A stretch of DNA of 64,000 nucleotides from Candidatus Yanofskybacteria bacterium RIFCSPLOWO2_02_FULL_41_13 (GTDB taxonomy: Bacteria > Patescibacteriota > Minisyncoccia > 2-02-FULL-40-12 > GWA2-44-9): NCBI GenBank assembly GCA_001795735.1, contig MGKQ01000017.1:3326-67325 (forward strand), read 5' to 3'. The notes under the pieces are model-generated. The model was given only the letters and a program-made list of their open reading frames with translations. It was not told the origin of the DNA and made no database searches. The position numbers and the translations under genes were made by a program. How positions within the stretch are numbered: the first letter of the stretch is position 1; each line of letters opens with the position of its first letter. Shown here one piece after another: positions 13,973 through 51,188 of the stretch.

Positions 13973-14001
13973 TTTACAAAAAGGTAGAAAGGTGATATAA
14001 T
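13973..14001 (+). promoter_or_regulatory. sigma70-like promoter: TTTACA, 17 nt spacer, TATAAT
   Basis: Read directly. It lies about 70 nt upstream of the GC-rich gene at 14070. Confidence 0.55.
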
Positions 14002-14069
14002 GTATATACACAGTCGAGACAGATCTTCGACAATTTTCGCCCCTTGAACGGGGCAGAGGAGAAGACAAA

Positions 14070-14864
14070 ATGAGGAGCATTCTTTCGTTTTTCGTCGTCG
14101 TCGCAACTCTGGCCACGGCCATTCCGGCTGAGGCTCAACAGAGTCCGCTCGTAACCTTGATGGCCGAAAGGATCATCAACAGTTCCAGCGGCATATACGG
14201 CGGTGGCTACTACGGCCCGCGCCTCGGTCGCAACTATGGGGGTTACTACCAGATCGAGCTGGCCATGGTTGTAGACTTTCTCAAAATGCCTGGAGTGCTG
14301 AACGCATGTACGCTGAGCACGAGCGTCTCCAACCCGGAGAAGCAAGTGGCGATGAACTGCCACATCATCATGAGAAGCTCACCGGAGAGCGTCCAGGCCC
14401 AGCTTGGGAACTTCCCGGAATCGGATCTACTCGGAACGCAGCACCCAGAAGCCGGAGTAATGCACATCCGTGCATATGATCCGACGCACAAGCCGTTCAA
14501 CAGAAACCACAAGGATTGCATACCTGTTGAATCACGCGCAATTCAGCCGGCACCGATGCCGACGGCAGAGGTGGCAACACCACTTCCGACACCACAAACC
14601 GTTCCGGTCAAGAGGATCGATCCAGAGGAGGAGATGTCTTGGAATACGGTCAACACTACCGACTTCACAGCGGTGGTCGTTGATCCGAACACGGGAAGGA
14701 AGGAACTGATCTCAGCAATGAGCTCAGCCAGCCTTTCAACTCCGACCGGTTCGAAACCGTACGTGGTAACGTTGCTTGTGCCGGGACGAGGCAACATCGA
14801 CAAGGTTCCCGGCGAGATTCGTCCCAGCAAAGACCTACAGGGCTGGGAAATCGTAGCCCGATAA
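14070..14864 (+). CDS. secreted hypothetical protein, Gly/Tyr-rich, on high-GC island 2
   Basis: Signal peptide 'MRSILSFFVVVATLATAIPAEA'. Carries 'GGGYYGPRLGRNYGGYY' and a PT-rich linker. SD GAGGAG. Composition is far richer in GC than the flanks. Confidence 0.6.
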   Translation: MRSILSFFVVVATLATAIPAEAQQSPLVTLMAERIINSSSGIYGGGYYGPRLGRNYGGYYQIELAMVVDFLKMPGVLNACTLSTSVSNPEKQVAMNCHIIMRSSPESVQAQLGNFPESDLLGTQHPEAGVMHIRAYDPTHKPFNRNHKDCIPVESRAIQPAPMPTAEVATPLPTPQTVPVKRIDPEEEMSWNTVNTTDFTAVVVDPNTGRKELISAMSSASLSTPTGSKPYVVTLLVPGRGNIDKVPGEIRPSKDLQGWEIVAR

Positions 14865-14875
14865 AGGAGATTGAC

Positions 14876-15517
14876 ATGGAACGAATACTGAGAAGGATCG
14901 GATTCTTCTCCTCGGCGGACCAAAATCCGCCGACGGCAACTTGTAATCAACCTGAGGCACCGGGTCCGAACCCGATGCCTCAGCCGACACCACGCCAGGC
15001 AAGGACGAGAAATCGTCCACCGACACGCCTAGCGTACACACGTCATGCCTCAGCAGGCGACGGCGACGACGTGATTGTCAACCCAGCATGGAATCAGTTC
15101 AAAACAGCCATGGTCTGGATTGGGGGCATCGCCGTTCTTGCCTGGATCTTCGGCGGCGGATACCTAGCTGGCCGACCATCGATGGTTAGCCAGCAAACAC
15201 AACAAGTCGTCACCAATCACGCTCAAGTGCCGACTGCGACTCAGCAGACGGCCTTAGAGCAAGGAGCAGTGATGACAACGGAAACGATCAAGGAGGCATT
15301 GACCGAAGCAGGAGAAATCCTGTCGGCCACCAACGTAGTTCGTGGTCAGGTGAAGGAGATGGCTCAGGCCGAGCTCCCACCGACGCCACCCTCGCCTCCG
15401 CCTTCGGTCGAAAAACCGAATGCGGAACCGCCGCCCGCTCCACCCACCCTCACTGATGCCCAACAGCGCAACGAGGCGTTGAAACAACGCCTTCGAGAAC
15501 GCTACGACATCAAGTAG
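14876..15517 (+). CDS. hypothetical membrane-anchored protein, Pro-rich, on high-GC island 2
   Basis: One TM segment 'MVWIGGIAVLAWIFGGGYLAG'. SD AAGGAG. Translationally coupled to the previous gene. Confidence 0.55.
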   Translation: MERILRRIGFFSSADQNPPTATCNQPEAPGPNPMPQPTPRQARTRNRPPTRLAYTRHASAGDGDDVIVNPAWNQFKTAMVWIGGIAVLAWIFGGGYLAGRPSMVSQQTQQVVTNHAQVPTATQQTALEQGAVMTTETIKEALTEAGEILSATNVVRGQVKEMAQAELPPTPPSPPPSVEKPNAEPPPAPPTLTDAQQRNEALKQRLRERYDIK

Positions 15518-15523
15518 GTTCCA

Positions 15524-15580
15524 AGCTCGTACCTTCCAACCCAGTTCATCTGGGCCATCGGAAGGACGAGCTTTTTTCTT
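15524..15580 (+). terminator. intrinsic terminator closing island 2
   Basis: Stem agctcgtaccttcc / ggaaggacgagct followed by TTTTTTCTT. Confidence 0.55.
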
Positions 15581-15788
15581 TATCTTGAGCCCACCGAAAG
15601 AATTGAAAAAATTCCCACAAACTGTAGACTATAATCAATAGATTTGAGCTAAGTTCGAGGCAGAATCGAGTATTGATTCGAGGCGTAGTAGGACTACGGC
15701 GAGAATCAAGCGGAGATTTTAACGAAGAAATTAGCCAAACCTGAAAGGTGTGCCGCTGGCCTAAAATTCATATTAGGCCCGGCATATA

Positions 15789-16238
15789 TTGATTATGAAA
15801 CATATCACTAAAAGCCCGAAGGAAACTCAAAAACTAGGGCATTTTTTATTAAATAAAATAAGCGTTGGTACCCAAAAGAGCGGTTTGATTATAGCCTTAT
15901 CGGGAGAGCTTGGAGCAGGCAAGACAACCCTTGTTCAGGGATTGGCAAAAATATTAGGCATAAAAACCAAAGTAAAAAGCCCCACTTTTACCCTTATTAA
16001 GAAGTACAAACTTCCAAAAAAGTTTAAAAATTCTAAATATCTATATCACATAGACTGCTACCGCTTGAAAAATCATAAAGATTTATTATCTCTCGGAATA
16101 AAGAATATATTGAAAGACAAAGAAAATATAATTCTGATTGAGTGGCCAGAAAAGATAAGGAAAATATTATCCGACAAAAAAATAGACATTAGAATCGAGC
16201 ATATAGACAAGAACACAAGGAAAATAGCTGTAAGCTAG
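15789..16238 (+). CDS. tsaE: tRNA t6A biosynthesis ATPase TsaE (YjeE)
   Basis: 'GELGAGKTTLVQGLAKILGI' and 'YHIDCYRL'. Confidence 0.8.
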   Translation: MIMKHITKSPKETQKLGHFLLNKISVGTQKSGLIIALSGELGAGKTTLVQGLAKILGIKTKVKSPTFTLIKKYKLPKKFKNSKYLYHIDCYRLKNHKDLLSLGIKNILKDKENIILIEWPEKIRKILSDKKIDIRIEHIDKNTRKIAVS

Positions 16239-42902: not shown

Positions 42903-44057
42903 ATGAAAGAAGAGAGAGACGATCCGATAGAAAGTTACCTTAAACCCAGATTAGCTAAGTTCGGGATAGCTCTTGGCAGGGGATTTCTTCCGCCAACAGA
43001 TCCTTTAACCTTGATGCCGGGCGAGTTCGGCTACTTAGATGTTTTTGGTAAGCAGATTCCTGATTTGCTTGAATCGGGAAACATTATCCAAGCGGCCAAA
43101 TCTCTACCCCTGCCTTCACAAAATGCCTTAGCCGTTCTTAGTCGGGCTGAAAAAGACAGGGCGATGATGATTTACGGTTTCGGGGCAAGTGCAGTTGTTC
43201 ACTCAACTAATCCGCCCCAGACCGTGATACCAAGACAAATTGCTGAACCTCTCTGCCGGCTTTCAAATGACTTTGGCAAAAAACCGATTCTTTCCTACTA
43301 TTCATACTCTTCGTCTAACTGGAGAAGGATTAATCCGGCAAATGACATAGCGCTCGGCAATATTGAACTTCTTCAGAATTTTGTGAAGGCCTATGACGAG
43401 GATTGGTTTATTTTAGTCCATGCGGCCATTGAGAAAAAAGCGGCTCTTGTGGTTGAAGGGGGGATTTTAGCCGCCGATATTGCTAAAGCAAGCAATACTC
43501 ATCTTCTTTGGCATGCATTATCAGATGTGAGTTCGGCCATTTGGGGAATGACGGTAGTCTTAAAGAGAATGCCCGAGCATTGCTCTCCGGATGTTTACTA
43601 TAAAACAGTTCGTCCGTGGATAATGCCTTTTAGCGATGTCGTTTTTGAAGGCGTCAGAGATGATCCGATAAAAGTATTGAGAGGTGAAACCGGCGCTCAA
43701 AGCCTGATCATCCCCTTTCTCGTTGCGTTACTGGGCATAAAACACGGGCAAACAGGACTGACTAACCATCTTATGGATATGCGTGATTACATGCCCCCCG
43801 GACACAGGATATTAGTTGAAGAAATGGAAAAAATCTCGATTATACGAAACTTGATAATCAAAACAGGCTTCAGGAATTTAGTAGAAATTTATAATGAATG
43901 TCTTGAAATGCTTTATGAATTCAGAGCTTTACATTACGAATACGCCATAACTTACATTCATAAGAAAACTGATAATCCTGAAGGAACCGGTAAAACTCCG
44001 TTCATGGAATGGTTAAAACAGCTGATGAACGAGACGCTGGAGCATAAAATAACTTAA
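42903..44057 (+). CDS. indoleamine 2,3-dioxygenase (IDO)-like heme dioxygenase
   Basis: 'GETGAQSLIIPFLVALLGI' matches IDO1 'GGSAGQSSVFQCFDVLLGI'. 'RDYMPPGHR' matches 'RRYMPPAHR'. A proximal His lies in 'ALHYEY'. 'EGTGKTPFMEWLK' matches 'KGTGGTDLMNFLK'. Confidence 0.7.
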   Translation: MKEERDDPIESYLKPRLAKFGIALGRGFLPPTDPLTLMPGEFGYLDVFGKQIPDLLESGNIIQAAKSLPLPSQNALAVLSRAEKDRAMMIYGFGASAVVHSTNPPQTVIPRQIAEPLCRLSNDFGKKPILSYYSYSSSNWRRINPANDIALGNIELLQNFVKAYDEDWFILVHAAIEKKAALVVEGGILAADIAKASNTHLLWHALSDVSSAIWGMTVVLKRMPEHCSPDVYYKTVRPWIMPFSDVVFEGVRDDPIKVLRGETGAQSLIIPFLVALLGIKHGQTGLTNHLMDMRDYMPPGHRILVEEMEKISIIRNLIIKTGFRNLVEIYNECLEMLYEFRALHYEYAITYIHKKTDNPEGTGKTPFMEWLKQLMNETLEHKIT

Positions 44058-44124: not shown

Positions 44125-44199
44125 GTCGGTGTAGCTCAGTGGTAGAGCACTTCCCTCATAAAGAAGTTGTCGCAGGTTCGATCCCTGCCACCGACACCA
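44125..44199 (+). tRNA. tRNA-Met/Ile2 (CAU), elongator type
   Basis: Cloverleaf. Anticodon loop cuCAUaa. CCA is encoded. The 1-72 pair is paired, so this is not initiator-like. Confidence 0.75.
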
Positions 44200-44210
44200 C
44201 ATCTGATGCA

Positions 44211-45491
44211 ATGAAAACAACTTTTAACCACAATTTTCACAAATTTGATTCAGGTTTACGCCTGATTACTATTCCCATGCCGTCGACAAAAACGGCGACG
44301 GTTTTTGTTTTAGTTGGAACTGGTTCCAAGTATGAAGCTAAAAATATAAACGGCATTTCGCATTTTCTTGAGCATATGATGTTTAAGGGAACGGAAAAAA
44401 GGCCGGGAACGATGGATATTGCCAGAGAGCTCGATTCTATCGGTGCCGAATATAATGCTTTCACTGGCAAGGAGTATACCGGCTACTATGCTAAAGCCAG
44501 CGCTGAGAAGTTGGATACGGTAATGGACGTCGTATTTGATATTTTTCTTAACTCAAAGTTATCAGAAGAGGAGATAGCTATTGAAAAGGGAGTTATTGTT
44601 GAGGAAATAAACATGTATCGAGATTTACCTCAGCGCCATGTCGGAGATCTGATCGAGGAGCTTTTATATGGCAATCAGCCGGCCGGATGGACTATTACCG
44701 GCGAAAAAGAAATTGTCATCGGTCTCAAGCGTGACGACTTTGTTAATTATTTTAATTCTCACTATGTTGCCGAGAACACAATCGTTGCCATAGCTGGCAG
44801 TGTTGATCCAGAAGAGGTTAAGAATAAGGTTGAAAAATATTTTAAGAACATTCGTCACGGTAAATTAATCGGCAAGCCGGCGGTAAAAGAGGAACAAAAT
44901 GAGCTAAAACTGCTTCTTAACTTCAAAGAAACCGACCAGTCTCATTTTATTTTAGCATTTAGATCTTTCGATATATTTGATGAGAGAAAATATGCCTTAG
45001 CCGTTTTAGCTAAAGTGTTGGGCGGAGGAATGGCTTCAAGGTTGTTCTATGAAGTCAGAGAGAGAAGAGGGTTGGCTTACTATGTCAGGGCAGAGGCGAA
45101 TCCTTATACTGACAGCGGTTATCTTGCCATTAGTGCTGGAGTGAATAACGAAAAAGCTCCGGAGGCGATAAAGGTTATTTTAGCTGAGGCAAACAAAATA
45201 AAGGAGAGTGGTATTACCGATAAAGAGCTTCAAGGGGCCAAAGACAATGCTGAGGGAGGGATGGCTTTGAGCTTAGAACATTCTGATGGAGTAGCGATGA
45301 ATTATGCCGATTCAATTTTATTCCATAAGAAGGTTTTGACCCCGGAGGAAGAACTCGGTAAAATAAAGAGAGTAACCATTGAGGATGTTCATGGGGTGGC
45401 CAAGGATATCTTTAGCAATAAGGGATTAAATCTAGCCCTTATCGGACCGTTTAAAGACGAGGACAAATTTAAAGAAATTTTAAAACTTTAA
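44211..45491 (+). CDS. M16-family (pitrilysin/insulinase-like) zinc peptidase
   Basis: Inverted zinc motif 'HFLEHMMFKGT'. The track ORF start lies inside the tRNA, so the ATG at 44211 was chosen. Confidence 0.75.
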   Translation: MKTTFNHNFHKFDSGLRLITIPMPSTKTATVFVLVGTGSKYEAKNINGISHFLEHMMFKGTEKRPGTMDIARELDSIGAEYNAFTGKEYTGYYAKASAEKLDTVMDVVFDIFLNSKLSEEEIAIEKGVIVEEINMYRDLPQRHVGDLIEELLYGNQPAGWTITGEKEIVIGLKRDDFVNYFNSHYVAENTIVAIAGSVDPEEVKNKVEKYFKNIRHGKLIGKPAVKEEQNELKLLLNFKETDQSHFILAFRSFDIFDERKYALAVLAKVLGGGMASRLFYEVRERRGLAYYVRAEANPYTDSGYLAISAGVNNEKAPEAIKVILAEANKIKESGITDKELQGAKDNAEGGMALSLEHSDGVAMNYADSILFHKKVLTPEEELGKIKRVTIEDVHGVAKDIFSNKGLNLALIGPFKDEDKFKEILKL

Positions 45492-47397: not shown

Positions 47398-47583
47398 TTT
47401 AGAATGCAGCTGGCTTAGTCAAATTCAAGGCAAAATTGAGCAAGAGAAGATTTTAACGAAGATGTTGGCTAAGAGTGTACTGCCGTAATCGAGCCTGGCT
47501 CGATGGCAAAGCGATTAGCAAGTTATAATGAATAAATATTTTATCTCAACTGCGATACCTTGCCAAGTCTGGTAAATTAAAAA

Positions 47584-48486
47584 ATGATAATCTCTGCTCC
47601 TGAAAATATATCAGATTTTTTAAAATCACGAGACTCATTTCTAATTGTCAAAGATAAAAAAACAGAGTTTCGGGTACTGGATAAAGATCCCAGGCATATT
47701 AGCTTCGATGGTAGTTTCAAGTTGATGACTATTTCTGCAAAAGGAATTGCCAATCTCAGCAATTACTATAATCAGATCGGCCTTTTGCAGGTATATTATA
47801 GATTTTTAGGAACGCAATCTATTGAGGATGATATATTCTTGCTTCATGGTTCAGCAGCGATATCTAATAATGGCAGAACTGTTTTATTCGGAGATAGCGG
47901 ACGTTCAATAGGCAAAACATTGTCTTCAATGGAGCTGGCTCGTCTAAGCAGTCAATACATCGCTGACGAGTTTGTGTTTTTTGACATCAACTCTTTTGAG
48001 ATTTTTTCAGATGACAATATTCCGATACATGCCCGACAAAAAACAGTGGACCATTTTGCCAAAGAACACGGTATGGTTATAACCAATGAGTTTTTTGATA
48101 AGCAAGAGTTGGGCTGGAAATTTATAAAAAAAGCAGGATTGGATTTAATTGTGTACGTTAACTTTTCCGAAGGCAAGGAGGGCCTAGAAGAATTGTCCAC
48201 TGATATTGCCGCAAAATACGCCATGGTTACACTATCCGCCCATTTAGAGAAGATGCTTAATCCAAGCCTCGATCGATTTCAGTTCGACTCCCAAAAGGAC
48301 ATGGTCAATATGGATAATAGTCAGTTTGAGAAAGCTAGACAAAAAGTAATCTTTGATAGGCTGAGCTCGCGGCTTAAAGATGCTTCTTTAAAAATTGGGC
48401 ATAATATTCCTAGTTTTGAGTTGTCCGTAAAGACCCCTTGCAGTGTCCCGCTTTATATTGATACTATTACTAGCAAGAATAGATAA
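47584..48486 (+). CDS. HprK-C-like P-loop kinase-domain protein
   Basis: 'LLHGSAAISNNGRTVLFGDSGRSIGKTLSSMELARL' resembles the HPr kinase/phosphorylase C-domain P-loop (GDSGxGKS). Confidence 0.45.
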   Translation: MIISAPENISDFLKSRDSFLIVKDKKTEFRVLDKDPRHISFDGSFKLMTISAKGIANLSNYYNQIGLLQVYYRFLGTQSIEDDIFLLHGSAAISNNGRTVLFGDSGRSIGKTLSSMELARLSSQYIADEFVFFDINSFEIFSDDNIPIHARQKTVDHFAKEHGMVITNEFFDKQELGWKFIKKAGLDLIVYVNFSEGKEGLEELSTDIAAKYAMVTLSAHLEKMLNPSLDRFQFDSQKDMVNMDNSQFEKARQKVIFDRLSSRLKDASLKIGHNIPSFELSVKTPCSVPLYIDTITSKNR

Positions 48487-48507
48487 ATTAATTAATTTAC
48501 ATATACA

Positions 48508-48921
48508 ATGAGCAGCAAAAATAGGGCAGTAATTATTATAATAAATGACGATAAAATCCTTCTCTTGTATCGTCTTAAAAATGGGGAAGAATATTATGTA
48601 TTTCCTGGCGGTGGAGTTGAGGATGGAGAGTCAGTCCTGGATGCAGTTGTCAGGGAGGCAAAGGAAGAAACTGGTCTCGATGTAACGATAAAACTAAAGC
48701 TGTGGGAATATGAGAATAAAGATAGGGTAGAGCATTTCTTTCTGGCTGATAAGTTTAGCGGGGAATTAAAGATTGGTGGCCCTGAAGAAACAAGGCAGTC
48801 GGCAGATAATGTCTATCGACTCGAATGGGTGGCGCTTGATAAGGTTAGTGACTTAAAGTTAGTTCCGGAAGAGATGAAAACCAAAGTATTAAAGGAGCTT
48901 CTTGCTCAAGAATCTTCTTAA
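48508..48921 (+). CDS. NUDIX hydrolase
   Basis: NUDIX box 'GGGVEDGESVLDAVVREAKEETGL'. Confidence 0.75.
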   Translation: MSSKNRAVIIIINDDKILLLYRLKNGEEYYVFPGGGVEDGESVLDAVVREAKEETGLDVTIKLKLWEYENKDRVEHFFLADKFSGELKIGGPEETRQSADNVYRLEWVALDKVSDLKLVPEEMKTKVLKELLAQESS

Positions 48922-48944
48922 TAAAAATTTCTTAGAGAAGGATC

Positions 48945-49505
48945 ATGAATATATTTGAAGAAAAAATAAAATTTGAGAAACTCTTGCTTGCTTATAAAGT
49001 TCCGGTTCTTACGGTGGCATATCACGGCAGTTTGCTCGGTCATGTTACACCCAAGAGTGACCTGGATGTAGTCTTAATAATAGAGGATATCACACCGGAT
49101 CTTTTTAGAAAGATAAACTCTATTACCAAAAAAATAAATGCCCATCTGGGTATTAGCATAGTTCCAGTTAGAGAAGCCGGAACAATCTTCGGTGGATTAA
49201 AATATTTGGATGCCCTATGTCGACACTACGGATCTGAAGATAAATATCCTTATGCATATTATAAAATTGCTACTCTCAATGAACAGTTCAGGCGCAGTGC
49301 CATAGAGATGAATCTTAAGAAGTGTGAGAATGTAGCTAAAATAATAACGAAAACCATAAATAATTTTTTAGGAACAAACTTTAAAATAAGCGTTAAAACA
49401 TTTGATTCTCTGGTCAACTCATTAGAAAAGAACTTGGGACTCTTTTATCGTCATGAAAAAATTAAGGTCGGCCGATATTCGGAAAGGGTAGAGACAGTTC
49501 GGTAG
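48945..49505 (+). CDS. minimal pol-beta-superfamily nucleotidyltransferase
   Basis: 'HGSLLGHVTPKSDLDVVLII' matches the GS-x(n)-DxD nucleotidyltransferase motif. Confidence 0.55.
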   Translation: MNIFEEKIKFEKLLLAYKVPVLTVAYHGSLLGHVTPKSDLDVVLIIEDITPDLFRKINSITKKINAHLGISIVPVREAGTIFGGLKYLDALCRHYGSEDKYPYAYYKIATLNEQFRRSAIEMNLKKCENVAKIITKTINNFLGTNFKISVKTFDSLVNSLEKNLGLFYRHEKIKVGRYSERVETVR

Positions 49506-49527
49506 ATACTATTTATAATAAATTAAT

Positions 49528-50118
49528 ATGGATAGTTCTTCTTATAGCATTGCAATAATAAAACCGGATGCTCATAGAGATATGATGGCAGAGATGATTG
49601 GCCGGGATCTTGAAGAAGGTGGTCTGGATGTAATATTTAGGAAAGATATAGTTTTTTCTGAAGTGCAGGCAAAAATAATTTACCTAAAGGAACTAGAGGG
49701 CCATCCTAATTTATCCGGGGCAATTAAGAGTATTTTAGGGACAGAGAAGAATAACCTTAGTACCATTTTAATTCTAAAATCTAAAGAGGGCCAAAATGGG
49801 TTGGCTAAAGCAGTAAATATTAAGGGCAAAGTAGGCAAGGGAGGTATTAGGGCGAAATACAATCTTTATTCTCGTGAGGAGCTAGAGTCAGGGGGTTTTA
49901 CGGGTGATGAGTTGAGTAGTGAGTTAGCGAAGAACCGTCTTCATGTGCCTGATACTGATTCGGAGGCATTTGAAATCATGAGTATGTTGTTAACGGAAAA
50001 AGATAAAAATGAACTTAAATATAGGGAGCCTGAGTTATATAACGAGTTGGAGAGGATGATTAAAAGCAGGGAAGTAACACTTGAGCCTGAAAGGCCCAGA
50101 GAGTTGAAATCAAGATGA
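49528..50118 (+). CDS. nucleoside-diphosphate-kinase-like domain protein, possibly inactive, with a C-terminal extension
   Basis: 'YSIAIIKPDAHRDMMAEMIGRDLEEGGLDVIF' aligns with the NDK N-terminus. The canonical NxxHGSD histidine was not found. Confidence 0.4.
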   Translation: MDSSSYSIAIIKPDAHRDMMAEMIGRDLEEGGLDVIFRKDIVFSEVQAKIIYLKELEGHPNLSGAIKSILGTEKNNLSTILILKSKEGQNGLAKAVNIKGKVGKGGIRAKYNLYSREELESGGFTGDELSSELAKNRLHVPDTDSEAFEIMSMLLTEKDKNELKYREPELYNELERMIKSREVTLEPERPRELKSR

Positions 50119-50189
50119 AAAATAAATATTTTATTTCGACCACTCCGTATCTAGAGCGCGTTGGAAATTGTCAAAATTTGTGATAGAAT

Positions 50190-51188
50190 TTGGCAATGAG
50201 AAGGGTTGATATACAGGAGAATATCCTGAGAAATTTATATATAAATCAGCATCTCACCACTTATCAAATAGCTGAAAAGCTTGGTTTTTGCCAGGGAACA
50301 ATTTGGAAACGACTTCATGAATATAAAATAAAACCCAGGCTTTCTTATGTGCCCGTCGGTTTTACCGAGGAACAACTTAAAAAATGGTATGTAAGTCAGA
50401 AGCTTTCAACGTGGGAAATTGAGAAAAAGTTTGGATATCCTCGGGGTACTATATATAGGAAACTAAAAGAATTCGGTTTAAATACAAGGAATATAGCCTC
50501 ATCTCATATAAGGTTTTCTCGCCAAGATTTTAGCGGTGATATTCTGGAGAAGGCATATTTGGTAGGTTTTAGGATAGGCGACCTAAATATTACTAAGTGC
50601 GGTCCACAAAGCGAAACCATTGTGACCAAATGTGGGAGTACTAAAAAGGGACAGATAAGATTATTTAGAGATTTATTTTCACATTATGGTCATATTTTAC
50701 AAGGCAAGCTCACCAAAGAAGGAAAAATAAATATTCAAGTAAATCTCAATCTGACATTCTCTTTCTTACTTGCCAAAAACCCAAATAGCTATCAGTGGGT
50801 TTTTAATAATAAGGATACATTTTTTTCTTTTTTGGCTGGCTTTTCTGATGCAGAAGGATCGTTTTTTATATCTGAAGATAAAGCAGTTTTTGCTCTAGGC
50901 AACTATAACAAGATATTGCTCGCAAAAATTAGAAAGAAATTGTTTGAGTTAGGAATAGAGACTCCAGAGTTAAGCATTTACCACTCAAAAGGATTAAGAA
51001 GTAGCAATGGCTATATTAATAACGGCGATTATTTTACTCTCCATTGTAGTAGAAAGAAGTATTTGCTAAGGATTTTAGAGGAATTTAAGCAGTATTTGAA
51101 ACACCCCGATAAGTTAAAAACGATGGAAAAGTCACTTCAAAATATAATAGATCGTAATAAAAAGTACGGAGATTTAAGGATGGCATAA
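50190..51188 (+). CDS. free-standing LAGLIDADG homing endonuclease with N-terminal tandem HTH repeats
   Basis: 'YLVGFRIGDLNI' and 'FLAGFSDAEGSF' are the two LAGLIDADG motifs. The N-terminus duplicates 'TYQIAEKLGFCQGTIWKRL' / 'TWEIEKKFGYPRGTIYRKL'. Confidence 0.7.
   Translation: MAMRRVDIQENILRNLYINQHLTTYQIAEKLGFCQGTIWKRLHEYKIKPRLSYVPVGFTEEQLKKWYVSQKLSTWEIEKKFGYPRGTIYRKLKEFGLNTRNIASSHIRFSRQDFSGDILEKAYLVGFRIGDLNITKCGPQSETIVTKCGSTKKGQIRLFRDLFSHYGHILQGKLTKEGKINIQVNLNLTFSFLLAKNPNSYQWVFNNKDTFFSFLAGFSDAEGSFFISEDKAVFALGNYNKILLAKIRKKLFELGIETPELSIYHSKGLRSSNGYINNGDYFTLHCSRKKYLLRILEEFKQYLKHPDKLKTMEKSLQNIIDRNKKYGDLRMA

What the first reader, a model, noticed from the sequence alone, without database searches (positions are those of the whole stretch)
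47584..50118. A tight four-gene operon of nucleotide-handling enzymes: HprK-like P-loop kinase, NUDIX, minimal nucleotidyltransferase and an NDK-like protein
Four co-directional genes are separated by only 21-23 nt. Together they combine an HPr-kinase-C-like P-loop protein, a NUDIX pyrophosphohydrolase, a polβ-type minimal nucleotidyltransferase and a degenerate NDK-fold protein. That amounts to a kinase, a nucleotidyl transferase, a nucleotide pyrophosphatase and an NTP-handling fold. The combination is reminiscent of nucleotide-second-messenger or nucleotidylation-based toxin/defence logic. It does not match any described system that I recognise. A free-standing homing endonuclease follows it.
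Basis: inference. Interest (0 to 1): 0.55.

Follow-up and report, generated by a model that had tools for sequence, protein, structure and literature searches.

The report
Conserved four-enzyme nucleotide-handling operon
Four tightly packed genes in an ultra-small (CPR) bacterium form a real, evolutionarily conserved unit that most likely phosphorylates an unknown sugar-like compound and attaches a nucleotide to it, rather than acting as an immune system; its product is still unknown.

Summary
Four co-directional ORFs (47584-50118) are separated by 21, 23 and 22 nt in a Candidatus Yanofskybacteria genome.

- ORF1 founds a rare family (108 clusters in 1.84 billion) with a PEPCK/HprK-type P-loop fold.
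- ORF2 is an intact NUDIX hydrolase.
- ORF3 is an AadA/ANT(9)-like pol-beta nucleotidyltransferase.
- ORF4 is a divergent but catalytically intact NDK, not a degenerate one.

The set is co-conserved. In 17 non-redundant loci ORF1 is adjacent to a NUDIX or fused to one in 16. An NTase accompanies it in 13 of 13 loci long enough to judge, and an NDK in 12 of 14. Three independent ORF1::NUDIX fusions exist, and one copy lies on a phage contig. Most relatives also carry a DHQ-synthase-like cyclase whose DAHP-binding residues are substituted, and some carry a GT2 glycosyltransferase. The window has lost the cyclase from a syntenic site.

No defence-system model matches, and the locus sits among housekeeping genes. 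My best reading (confidence about 0.35) is a kinase, then nucleotidyltransferase, activation pathway for a sugar or cyclitol phosphate, with NUDIX editing and NDK supplying NTPs. The main rivals are nucleotide-pool conversion and peptide or protein phospho-modification. I found no published description.

The parts
47398..47583 (+). 186-nt upstream intergenic region (presumed promoter/leader of the operon)
   Evidence: This is the only long gap near the block. It has no Rfam match and no riboswitch. Promoter-like hexamers are at chance level. It contains one copy of the short repeat GAATAAATATTTTAT (47530-47544); the second copy lies just after ORF4.
47584..48486 (+). ORF1: founding member of a rare PEPCK/HprK-clan P-loop phosphotransferase-like family ('mini-PEPCK/HprK-like'), predicted active
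   Evidence: No hit in Pfam, NCBIfam, PADLOC, PHROGs or by PDB sequence search. AF2 model pLDDT 86.6, pTM 0.86. Foldseek: ATP-PEPCK 1oen E = 1.1e-5 with query-normalised TM 0.49, HprK/P 1knx E = 2.7e-3, Catovirus PEPCK 5.4e-5. hhalign to an HprK-related kinase gives E = 2.8e-5. The alignment to E. coli PckA places H88, K111/T112 and D128/E129 on H232, K254/T255 and D268/D269. Invariant residues are R73, H88, D104, K111, D128, E129, K223, P227 and D230. The family has 108 representatives in 1.84e9 proteins.
48508..48921 (+). ORF2: NUDIX pyrophosphohydrolase with an intact Nudix box (GGGVEDGESVLDAVVREAKEETGL)
   Evidence: Pfam NUDIX 1.7e-19, 70.6 bits against a cut-off of 21.1. Nudix-box glutamates are present. 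The closest solved relatives are uncharacterised MutT/NUDIX proteins. In relatives the gene is adjacent to ORF1 or fused to it.
48945..49505 (+). ORF3: two-domain pol-beta-superfamily nucleotidyltransferase (N-terminal NTase core with G28-S29, D39, D41, E77, plus a helical C-terminal domain), ANT/AadA-like
   Evidence: No curated family hit; MntA 0.099. The invariant motif is YHGS...D-x-D...RE. AF2 pLDDT 75.5. Foldseek top hits are AAD(9) 6xz0 E = 2.3e-4 and AadA 5luh E = 9e-3, followed by MntA-type NTases. The core aligns with the 244-261-aa NTP_transf_2 proteins of the Saccharibacteria and fusion loci, E = 4.5e-5.
49528..50118 (+). ORF4: divergent nucleoside-diphosphate kinase with intact catalytic residues, an ~18-residue insertion before the catalytic His, and a ~55-aa helical tail
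   Evidence: The single sequence scores below the Pfam cut-off (20.5 against 27 bits). Homologs carry PF00334. The family profile matches PDB NDKs at E = 3e-18, with 'KNrlHvPd' aligned to 'KNVIHASD'. K12, Y52, R108, N136 and H139 are invariant.
50190..51188 (+). Adjacent, not part of the module: HTH + LAGLIDADG endonuclease-like gene inserted between the NDK gene and metG
   Evidence: Pfam HTH_50 4e-6 and LAGLIDADG_3 2.5e-4, just below its cut-off. I-OnuI E = 0.002 with a LAGFSDAEGSF motif. The gene is absent from the same junction in syntenic L001.

Best explanation
The four genes are the core of a conserved small pathway, found in CPR bacteria and on one phage contig, that adds a phosphate and then a nucleotide to a hydroxyl-bearing substrate. 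Inferred steps follow. ORF1, a PEPCK/HprK-clan P-loop phosphotransferase, phosphorylates a hydroxyl of substrate X using ATP. ORF3, an ANT/AadA-like NTase, uses an NTP to convert X-phosphate or X-OH into a nucleotide-linked form (NDP-X or NMP-X). ORF2, the NUDIX hydrolase, cleaves the resulting pyrophosphate linkage, either to edit or recycle the intermediate or to release X-phosphate plus NMP. ORF4, the NDK, regenerates the NTP donors. In the fuller and probably ancestral versions, X is made on site by a DHQ-synthase-like sugar-phosphate cyclase that cannot bind DAHP in the canonical way. The activated product is then passed on by a GT2 glycosyltransferase, sometimes with a SAM methyltransferase, probably to a cell-surface glycoconjugate. 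The window's lineage has lost the cyclase, so here X must come from elsewhere, for example from a host or from another locus. What is shown: the folds, the intact catalytic residues, the co-conservation, the fusions and the accessory genes. What is inferred: the order of reactions, the identity of X and the fate of the product.
For: (1) All four proteins look catalytically competent. ORF1 keeps an invariant His / P-loop Lys-Thr / Asp-Glu set that maps onto PEPCK and HprK catalytic residues. ORF2 has an intact Nudix box. ORF3 keeps GS, DxD and E77 with AadA-like spacing. ORF4 keeps the NDK K/Y/R/N/H set. (2) The genes are functionally coupled. ORF1 is adjacent to or fused with a NUDIX in 16 of 17 non-redundant loci. 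An NTase is present in 13 of 13 loci long enough to judge, and an NDK in 12 of 14. Gene orders vary. Three independent ORF1::NUDIX fusion proteins exist, and NUDIX::GT2 fusions occur in Saccharibacteria. (3) The accessory genes are biosynthetic. A DHQS-like gene is present in 10 of 14 loci. It keeps the NAD and metal-binding residues but replaces the Arg, Asn and His of AroB's GLRALLNLGHTFGHAIE motif with Q/H, S/G and D/N, and it scores below the aroB equivalog cut-off. GT2 occurs in L005, L012 and L023. ORF4-type NDKs sit in GT4/GT2/NUDIX/HprK-related or NTase clusters. (4) There is a documented precedent for the kinase plus NTase-fold pairing. The HprK-family kinase PsmK phosphorylates a hydroxyl, and the aminoglycoside-NTase-like PsmN is then required to add hexose onto that phosphate (PMC6993621). 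The same pairing appears at the edge of the ORF1 family. (5) ORF3's best structural matches are enzymes that nucleotidylate hydroxyls of aminocyclitol antibiotics, which fits a cyclitol-type substrate. (6) The NJ tree nests the window among cyclase-containing loci, so the window's four-gene form is a reduced version of the five-gene form.
Against: There is no biochemical evidence, and the substrate is unknown. Known sugar and cyclitol activating NTases have the RmlA/GlmU/GlgC fold, not the pol-beta fold. The window, L010/L021 and the phage copy lack both the cyclase and GT2, so the four-gene core must have a function that does not need them. The characterised HprK-type members of ORF1's clan are protein or peptide kinases, and an outer family member sits in a RiPP-like cluster. 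The module NUDIX domains are of two sequence types, and one is Ap4A-hydrolase-like, which fits a pure nucleotide substrate equally well. Structural matches have modest TM-scores (0.34-0.49). The tree is a simple NJ tree without support values.
Confidence: 0.35

Rival explanations
1. The module converts or cleans up the nucleotide pool. The NUDIX turns (d)NTPs, NpnN or damaged nucleotides into NMPs. ORF1 acts as a non-canonical NMP or nucleoside kinase. The NDK completes the path back to NTPs. The NTase uses or marks a particular nucleotide. This resembles the dCTPase, dNMP kinase, NDK logic that phage T4 uses to build modified dNTP pools (my own knowledge, not tested here).
For: All four core proteins handle nucleotides. 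The core occurs without cyclase or GT2 in the window, in L010/L021 and on a phage contig. In L010 it sits beside Ham1/ITPase, NTPase_I-T, inorganic pyrophosphatase and a second NUDIX. L028 adds a protein with two nucleotide-kinase-like P-loops, and L012 fuses NDK to a P-loop domain. The PKGH-type module NUDIX is closest to Ap4A and Ap6A hydrolases. CPR bacteria depend on nucleotide salvage (established knowledge).
Against: No known N(M)P kinase has a PEPCK/HprK fold. This reading gives no role to the DHQS-like cyclase (10 of 14 loci), GT2 or the methyltransferase, and no clear role to the ANT-like NTase.
Confidence: 0.25
2. The module phospho-modifies a protein or peptide. ORF1 phosphorylates a Ser or Thr of a protein or peptide target, as HprK/P, PadeK and PsmK do. 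ORF3 then adds a nucleotide or sugar to that phosphate, as PsmN does. The NUDIX removes the modification, and the NDK supplies NTPs.
For: ORF1's sequence bridges to the HprK-related kinases (hhalign E = 2.8e-5; outer members hit HprK_rel_A down to 1.5e-11 and Pfam Hpr_kinase_C). PsmK and PsmN provide experimental precedent. An outer family member lies in a PqqD / radical-SAM / NTP_transf_5 RiPP-like cluster.
Against: None of the core loci has a PqqD/RRE gene, a lasso cyclase, a precursor-peptide gene or an HPr gene. ORF1 matches PEPCK over its full length, including the N-terminal subdomain, better than it matches HprK/P. Fusion to NUDIX and linkage to a cyclase and GT2 are typical of small-molecule metabolism.
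Confidence: 0.2
3. The module is an anti-phage defence or toxin system, or a phage counter-defence system, based on a nucleotide signal or on nucleotidylation.
For: The enzyme types (NTase, NUDIX, kinase) recur in nucleotide-based conflict systems. One copy is phage-borne. ORF2 hits the PADLOC candidate model PDC-S07. L027 lies next to a SocA_Panacea gene and L006 next to an RM system.
Against: ORF1, ORF3 and ORF4 hit no PADLOC model. There is no effector, HEPN or sensor partner. The locus is syntenic among housekeeping genes and appears vertically inherited across CPR lineages. The accessory genes are biosynthetic. The family is absent from 50,697 isolated phage genomes, from IMG/VR pattern scans and from PHROGs.
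Confidence: 0.08
4. The four are unrelated housekeeping genes (a MutT, an NDK and two orphans) that happen to be adjacent in a compact genome.
For: CPR genomes are gene-dense and largely co-directional. GenBank lists all four as hypothetical proteins.
Against: Adjacency is kept across 17 loci at 28-63% ORF1 identity, with rearranged orders and gene fusions.
Confidence: 0.02

Closest known systems
PsmK/PadeK (HprK-family kinase) plus PsmN (aminoglycoside-NTase-like protein), the tailoring pair of lasso peptides (PMC6993621)
   Same: An HprK-clan P-loop kinase with an essential acidic pair is paired with a pol-beta/ANT-like NTase-fold enzyme. The kinase phosphorylates a hydroxyl, and the NTase-fold enzyme elaborates the phosphate. 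A glycosyltransferase can accompany the pair.
   Different: Here there is no lasso cyclase, B1/B2 protease, PqqD/RRE or precursor peptide. The CPR module adds a NUDIX (sometimes fused to the kinase), an NDK and often a DHQS-like cyclase. ORF1 and ORF3 reach no curated family threshold.
HprK-related kinase A/B (TIGR04352, TIGR04355) with NTP_transf_5 in PqqD / radical-SAM clusters
   Same: Outer members of the ORF1 profile's hit list match these models, and one lies in exactly such a cluster. The kinase plus NTase pairing is shared.
   Different: Scores are far below the cut-offs (at most 44 bits against 200). ORF1 itself has no hit. ORF1's P-loop has a 2-residue insertion (GDSGRSIGKT against GxSGxGKS). 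The gene context is different.
ATP-dependent PEP carboxykinase (PckA)
   Same: It is the best structural match to the ORF1 model in two libraries. The His, P-loop Lys-Thr and acidic-pair motifs align.
   Different: ORF1 has 300 aa against about 540. There is no Pfam PEPCK_ATP hit, and hhalign probability is only 10%. Whether the oxaloacetate-binding residues exist in ORF1 could not be established.
C7-cyclitol and pseudosugar pathways such as validamycin and acarbose: sugar-phosphate cyclase, then kinase, then NTase, then (pseudo)glycosyltransferase (recalled from memory)
   Same: The full CPR versions combine a DHQS-superfamily cyclase lacking DAHP-type substrate residues with a kinase-like protein, an NTase and a glycosyltransferase.
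   Different: The kinase and NTase have entirely different folds (PEPCK/HprK and pol-beta, rather than ROK/glucokinase and GlgC-like). There are no tailoring oxidoreductases. NUDIX and NDK are extra. The window lacks the cyclase and GT.
AadA / ANT(9) aminoglycoside (aminocyclitol) O-adenylyltransferases
   Same: They are the top structural matches of ORF3. Both have two domains (NTase core plus helical domain), and the D, D, E spacing is similar.
   Different: ORF3 has 186 aa against about 250-260. The TM-score is only about 0.35. ORF3 hits no ANT sequence model. The context is not a resistance context.
MntA/HepT (MNT-HEPN) type VII toxin-antitoxin systems
   Same: Both have the pol-beta minimal NTase core with GS...DxD. 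There are weak structural and NCBIfam similarities.
   Different: No HEPN partner is present. ORF3 carries an extra helical domain. The MntA score is 12.5 bits against a cut-off of 60.
Ap4A/Ap6A NUDIX hydrolases (A. aeolicus 3i7u, Ndx1, NUDT2)
   Same: The PKGH-type NUDIX of the fusion, Saccharibacteria and L010 versions is closest to these enzymes.
   Different: The window's own NUDIX is of the PGGGVE type. Its closest relatives are uncharacterised MutT/NUDIX proteins.

Membership tests
HPr kinase/phosphorylase (Pfam PF07475, TIGR00679) | Significant match of the protein to the family HMM above its curated cut-off | tested here: not met
   ORF1 has no hit at E <= 1 in Pfam or NCBIfam. Only a distant family member reaches Hpr_kinase_C, at 3.3e-4 and 20.7 bits against a cut-off of 33.3.
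HPr kinase/phosphorylase (Pfam PF07475, TIGR00679) | Walker-A motif GxSGxGKS followed by the acidic pair (..ADD..) | tested here: inconclusive
   ORF1 has GDSGRSIGKT, a 2-residue insertion, and the Gly before Lys is not conserved in the family. The K111-T112 and D128-E129 pairs are invariant or nearly so and align with the HprK-related motif.
HPr kinase/phosphorylase (Pfam PF07475, TIGR00679) | PEPCK/HprK-type P-loop fold | tested here: met
   Foldseek: HprK/P 1knx E = 2.7e-3, 2qmh E = 1.6e-2, PEPCK 1oen E = 1.1e-5. hhalign against an HprK-related kinase gives E = 2.8e-5.
HPr kinase/phosphorylase (Pfam PF07475, TIGR00679) | HPr (ptsH) substrate and a PTS context | not tested
   No PTS gene was seen among the gene families identified near the module. 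The rest of the genome is not available.
ATP-dependent PEP carboxykinase | Full-length two-domain enzyme of about 530 aa matching PF01293, with oxaloacetate/PEP-binding residues | tested here: not met
   ORF1 has 300 aa and no Pfam hit. hhalign probability is 10% over 60 columns. The query-normalised TM-score is 0.49 and the target-normalised score 0.31.
NUDIX hydrolase | Nudix box GX5EX7REUXEEXGU and a Pfam PF00293 match above the gathering score | tested here: met
   70.6 bits against 21.1. The box GGGVEDGESVLDAVVREAKEETGL is intact.
MutT (8-oxo-dGTPase) equivalog | Score above the TIGR00586 or PRK10776 cut-off | tested here: not met
   36.2 bits against 97.9, and 34.3 bits against 148.
Nucleoside-diphosphate kinase | Catalytic His plus the Lys, Tyr, Arg and Asn nucleotide-binding residues | tested here: met
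   K12, Y52, R108, N136 and H139 are invariant in 31 sequences. The profile matches PDB NDKs at E = 3e-18 through the His motif.
Nucleoside-diphosphate kinase | Single-sequence Pfam PF00334 or NCBIfam score above the cut-off, and the canonical length of about 140-150 aa | tested here: not met
   20.5 bits against 27, and 16.6 bits against 155. The protein has 196 aa, with an ~18-aa insertion and a C-terminal tail.
MntA-type minimal NTase antitoxin (type VII TA) | Adjacent HEPN toxin partner, NTase of about 100-135 aa, and a match to the NF047752 model | tested here: not met
   The neighbours are a NUDIX and an NDK. NF047752 scores 12.5 bits against 60. ORF3 has 186 aa and a helical domain whose conserved residues show no Rx4-6H motif.
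Aminoglycoside nucleotidyltransferase ANT(3'')(9)/ANT(9) | Match to the ANT family models, and a two-domain fold with a D, D, E catalytic set | tested here: inconclusive
   These are the top fold matches (6xz0 at 2.3e-4, 5luh at 9e-3), but TM is about 0.35. D39, D41 and E77 are conserved. ORF3 hits no NCBIfam ANT model.
Known anti-phage defence systems (PADLOC-DB v2) | Component proteins match models of a described or candidate system | tested here: not met
   ORF1, ORF3 and ORF4 have no hits. ORF2 hits only the candidate NUDIX model PDC-S07.
3-dehydroquinate synthase (AroB), for the accessory gene in related loci | Score above the TIGR01357 cut-off, and conserved DAHP carboxylate and phosphate contacts (the Arg, Asn and His of ..GxRxxLNxGHTxGHAxE..; the roles of these residues are from memory of the A. 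nidulans DHQS structure) | tested here: not met
   236-268 bits against 305. The Arg is replaced by Q/H, the Asn by S/G and the His by D/N in all eight CPR sequences, while the metal and NAD residues are kept. The window has no such gene.
Lasso-peptide or RiPP tailoring cluster (PsmK/PsmN type) | Precursor peptide, lasso cyclase (Asn-synthase-like), B1/B2 or PqqD-like RRE in the cluster | tested here: not met
   None appears among the Pfam-annotated neighbours of the core loci. No plus-strand peptide ORF lies upstream.

The most novel reading that the evidence does not exclude
The module is a previously undescribed pathway of CPR bacteria and at least one of their phages. In it, a new family of small 'mini-PEPCK/HprK-like' kinases acts on a small molecule rather than a protein. 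Together with an ANT-like NTase it builds a new class of nucleotide-linked metabolite. In the full versions this would be a nucleotide-activated carbocyclic sugar (cyclitol) phosphate, made by a non-DAHP DHQS-like cyclase and transferred by a GT2. That would be a route to activated sugars with no fold in common with the classical ROK-kinase and RmlA/GlgC-type routes.
Probability: 0.25. Interest if true: 0.75.

Novelty: new variant of a known kind. Interest (0 to 1): 0.55.

Why it matters
CPR/Patescibacteria have tiny genomes in which most conserved multi-gene units should be important, yet all four of these proteins are labelled 'hypothetical' in GenBank. If the proposed logic holds, three things follow:
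- It would define a new enzyme family in the PEPCK/HprK clan and give that clan a second small-molecule branch.
- It would assign a role to DHQ-synthase-like genes in organisms that, as far as I recall, generally lack the shikimate pathway.
- It would reveal how these episymbionts make or police an activated sugar-like donor, possibly for their cell surface.

The natural ORF1::NUDIX and NUDIX::GT2 fusions, and the existence of four-, five- and six-gene versions, give a ready-made set of constructs for biochemical testing.

Tried and rejected
**Searches that returned nothing useful**
- Direct family assignment of ORF1 and ORF3 by Pfam, NCBIfam, PADLOC, PHROGs and PDB sequence or profile search gave nothing significant.
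- Rfam scans of the window and the operon region found no riboswitch or leader RNA, only three tRNAs elsewhere.
- A tblastn and HMM search for a DHQS-like gene elsewhere in the 64-kb window found none.
- The GTDB representative-genome scan found only one relative, a Saccharibacteria MAG.
- IMG/VR pattern scans with P0110 and A1 found nothing, and the divergent alignments A3 and A7 could not be turned into search patterns.
- tblastn against 50,697 GenBank phage genomes found no ORF1 domain, only NUDIX matches.
- Literature searches for the gene combination found nothing. The papers with sugar-phosphate-cyclase active-site fingerprints (Kean et al. 2014, cited in PMC4426668; Wu et al. 2007, PMC3127856) were not available, so residue roles rest on my memory of the A. 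nidulans DHQS structure.

**Ideas considered and rejected**
- The weak ETV6/SAM-domain hits to ORF4's tail are inflated by triple-repeat fusion constructs.
- The MAD2, myosin and Mlh1_C hits to ORF1 all have E > 0.05.
- A CBASS/CD-NTase reading of the NTases rests only on a 33-residue match to the GS motif.
- A HEPN reading of ORF3's C-terminal domain fails because no Rx4-6H motif is conserved.

Full report
**Observation.** The window comes from a Candidatus Yanofskybacteria (CPR/Patescibacteria) metagenome-assembled genome. The gaps are 21, 23 and 22 nt. A 186-nt gap precedes ORF1 and a 71-nt gap follows ORF4. No intrinsic terminator lies on the + strand within the block, and promoter-like hexamers occur at the chance rate. 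So 'operon' rests on spacing, shared orientation and conservation. No Rfam family, riboswitches included, matches the region. GenBank lists all four proteins as 'hypothetical protein' (OGN12180-OGN12183).

**ORF2 and ORF4.** ORF2 is a bona fide NUDIX: Pfam 1.7e-19, 70.6 bits against a cut-off of 21.1, with an intact Nudix box. It reaches no equivalog cut-off (MutT 36 bits against 98). Its closest solved relatives are uncharacterised MutT/NUDIX proteins. ORF4 on its own is sub-threshold for NDK (20.5 against 27 bits). However, 36 of its 38 homolog clusters carry PF00334. A profile of 31 family members hits PDB NDKs at E = 3e-18, with the catalytic His motif aligned. K12, Y52, R108, N136 and H139, the NDK catalytic and nucleotide-binding set, are invariant. 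ORF4 is therefore a divergent but intact NDK with an ~18-residue insertion and a ~55-residue helical tail. It is not a degenerate NDK fold.

**ORF3.** ORF3 has no curated family hit. It does carry the invariant pol-beta NTase signature YHGS-x9-D-x-D and a conserved R76-E77. Its AF2 model (pLDDT 75.5) best matches the two-domain aminocyclitol and aminoglycoside adenylyltransferases AAD(9) (E = 2.3e-4) and AadA, followed by MntA-type minimal NTases. TM-scores are only about 0.35.

**ORF1.** ORF1 has no hit in Pfam, NCBIfam, PADLOC, PHROGs or by PDB sequence search. Its AF2 model is confident (pLDDT 86.6, pTM 0.86). The model matches ATP-dependent PEPCKs (1oen, E = 1.1e-5, query-normalised TM 0.49), then HprK/P (1knx, E = 2.7e-3). 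A giant-virus PEPCK is the only viral match. Profile comparison aligns the ORF1 core with an HprK-related kinase (E = 2.8e-5). It also aligns, with low probability but precisely, on PEPCK's catalytic segment. That places H88, K111-T112 and D128-E129 on PckA H232, K254-T255 and D268-D269. These residues, together with R73, D104, K223 and D230, are invariant in 41 family members. ORF1's P-loop carries a 2-residue insertion relative to GxSGxGKS. The family is rare: 10 clusters at 90% identity, 108 clusters at 50% identity among 1.84 billion, and one hit among 185,579 species-representative genomes. Its outermost members grade into the HprK-related kinase A/B models, far below their cut-offs.

**Co-conservation.** I fetched related loci by exact-protein look-ups and by genome and metagenome scans, then annotated them with local HMMs and Pfam. 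Seventeen non-redundant loci carry an ORF1-family gene.
- **NUDIX:** adjacent to ORF1 or fused to it in 16 of 17 loci.
- **Pol-beta NTase:** present in all 13 loci that extend far enough.
- **NDK:** present in 12 of 14 loci.
- **DHQ-synthase-like gene:** present in 10 of 14 loci.

**Architectures.**
- ORF1-NUDIX-DHQS-ORF3-NDK occurs in five lineages.
- NUDIX-ORF1-DHQS-ORF3-NDK occurs in L020.
- NDK-NUDIX-ORF3 facing a convergent ORF1 occurs in L010 and L021, with a canonical 143-aa NDK.
- ORF1 facing DHQS-NTase-NUDIX::GT2-NDK occurs in Saccharibacteria (L005, L012).
- MTase-NDK-ORF1::NUDIX-GT2-NTase-DHQS occurs in L023.
- DHQS-NUDIX-(double P-loop kinase)-...-ORF1::NUDIX-NTase occurs in L028.
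- ORF1::NUDIX-Polbeta NTase-NDK occurs on L025, a contig that is clearly phage-derived (Erf 2e-44, large terminase 4e-24, RNA ligase 1e-76).

**Fusions and looser clusters.** Three distinct ORF1::NUDIX fusion proteins (P0094, P0099, P0110) are Rosetta-stone evidence that the two activities are coupled. ORF4-type NDKs also sit in looser clusters with GT4 and GT2 glycosyltransferases, NUDIX genes, and either an HprK-related kinase or NTase-fold proteins.

**The missing cyclase.** In L001 the module occupies the same rsmI...metG slot as in the window. The window has only 23 nt where L001 has a 369-aa DHQS-like gene, and no such gene lies anywhere in the 64 kb. An NJ tree of ORF1 domains nests the window beside L001, within a clade whose other members all have the cyclase. 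L010 and L021 sit beside the cyclase-containing Saccharibacteria forms. This suggests repeated loss, though the tree has no support values. The cyclase is closest to bacterial DHQS (3okf, 5e-40), ahead of DOIS, EEVS and DDGS, but it scores below the aroB equivalog cut-off. Aligned to E. coli AroB, it keeps the NAD, metal and core catalytic residues. In the motif GLRALLNLGHTFGHAIE, however, it replaces the Arg, the Asn and the second His with Q/H, S/G and D/N. From the A. nidulans DHQS structure (my own knowledge), these positions contact the carboxylate and phosphate of DAHP. It is therefore probably an active cyclase or phospho-lyase acting on a substrate other than DAHP.

**Mechanism.** What is shown: four apparently active enzymes, one kinase-like, one pyrophosphohydrolase, one NTase and one NDK. 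They are tightly and anciently linked, the kinase-like and NUDIX parts are sometimes one polypeptide, and biosynthetic accessories (cyclase, GT2, SAM-MTase) are frequent. The closest experimentally documented analogue of the kinase plus NTase pairing is PsmK/PsmN in a lasso-peptide cluster. There an HprK-family kinase phosphorylates a hydroxyl once, twice or three times, and an aminoglycoside-NTase-like protein is then required to attach hexose to the phosphate (PMC6993621).

My preferred inference (confidence about 0.35) runs as follows. ORF1 phosphorylates a hydroxyl of substrate X. ORF3 nucleotidylates it. The NUDIX cleaves or edits the pyrophosphate-linked intermediate. The NDK regenerates NTPs. 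In full versions X is the cyclase product, and GT2 transfers the activated moiety.

**Rivals.**
- **Nucleotide-pool conversion or house-cleaning (0.25).** This is supported by the cyclase-less core in the window, in L010/L021 and on the phage. It is also supported by L010's Ham1, NTPase and PPase neighbours, by the extra nucleotide-kinase-like P-loops, and by the Ap4A-hydrolase-like PKGH-type NUDIX.
- **Protein or peptide phospho-modification (0.2).** This is supported by the clan's known biology and by an outer family member that sits in a PqqD / radical-SAM / NTP_transf_5 cluster.
- **Defence or counter-defence (0.08).**
- **Chance adjacency (0.02).**

**Defence reading.** ORF1, ORF3 and ORF4 match no PADLOC model. 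There is no effector or HEPN partner. The locus is syntenic among housekeeping genes. The family is absent from isolated phage genomes, from IMG/VR pattern scans and from PHROGs. The single phage-borne copy shows that the core can move between genomes. A nucleotide-metabolic auxiliary role explains it as well as a conflict role does.

**Novelty.** Literature searches for this gene combination returned nothing relevant, and the proteins are unannotated. Every fold is known. The combination is not, nor is the ORF1 family or the cyclase variant. I rate it a new variant of a known kind (kinase plus nucleotidyltransferase activation or tailoring modules) and of moderate interest. The substrate and product remain unidentified, and the decisive experiments are simple.

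Noticed in passing
window 42903-44057 (+): There is a clear indoleamine 2,3-dioxygenase homolog (Pfam IDO 1.1e-65). It is conserved at the same position in the related genome L001. A heme dioxygenase of tryptophan catabolism is unexpected in a minimal CPR genome.
   Followed up: no
window 50190-51188 (+): This is an HTH + LAGLIDADG endonuclease-like gene (LAGFSDAEGSF motif, I-OnuI E = 0.002). It is inserted between the NDK gene and metG and is absent from that junction in syntenic L001. This exact protein is not in the 15-billion-protein collection.
   Followed up: partly
window 47530-47544 and 50120-50134 (+): A short direct repeat (G/A)AATAAATATTTTAT brackets the operon. One copy lies about 40 nt upstream of ORF1 and the other about 56 nt upstream of the endonuclease-like gene. 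Two of 100 shuffles reach two matches. It may be a shared promoter element or chance in AT-rich DNA.
   Followed up: partly
window 44125-44196 (+) against ORF 44139-45491: A tRNA gene (69 bits) overlaps the mechanically called GTG start of the M16 peptidase ORF. The peptidase must start further downstream.
   Followed up: no
window 14001-16000: This GC-rich block (52.6% against about 40% elsewhere) holds two ORFs (14070-14864 and 14876-15517). It was not examined.
   Followed up: no
L012 12205-13182 (-); L028 1789-2961 (+): The Saccharibacteria NDK has 325 aa, with an extra C-terminal P-loop (GMSECGKST) domain. L028 encodes a 390-aa protein with two nucleotide-kinase-like P-loops (GLDHSGKS and GLSECGKSS). 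So extra nucleotide kinases join the module in some lineages.
   Followed up: partly
L006 7001-12458; L008 5060-9895: These are looser CPR clusters. L006 has ORF4-type NDK, GT4, HprK-related kinase, GT2, NUDIX, GT2, NUDIX, next to a restriction-modification system. L008 has NTase, GT4, NDK, NUDIX, PolyA_pol-like NTase, GT2.
   Followed up: partly
L030 8001-13427 (GCA_001797275.1): An outer ORF1-profile hit (P0165, HprK_rel_A 1.5e-11) lies in a RiPP-like cluster: HprK-like, peptidase S24, PqqD, radical SAM, PP-binding, unknown, NTP_transf_5.
   Followed up: partly
L010 3307-4065; L023 129-914; L028 3221-3433: A class-I SAM methyltransferase lies directly upstream of the NDK gene in L010 and L023, and a short methyltransferase-like ORF lies within the L028 module. 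It may be another accessory component.
   Followed up: no
L027 467-1186 (-) and 2168-2542 (+): This is the one ORF1-family locus (short form) without an adjacent NUDIX. It is flanked by a SocA_Panacea-domain gene and a hexapeptide-repeat transferase on a 2.5-kb contig.
   Followed up: no
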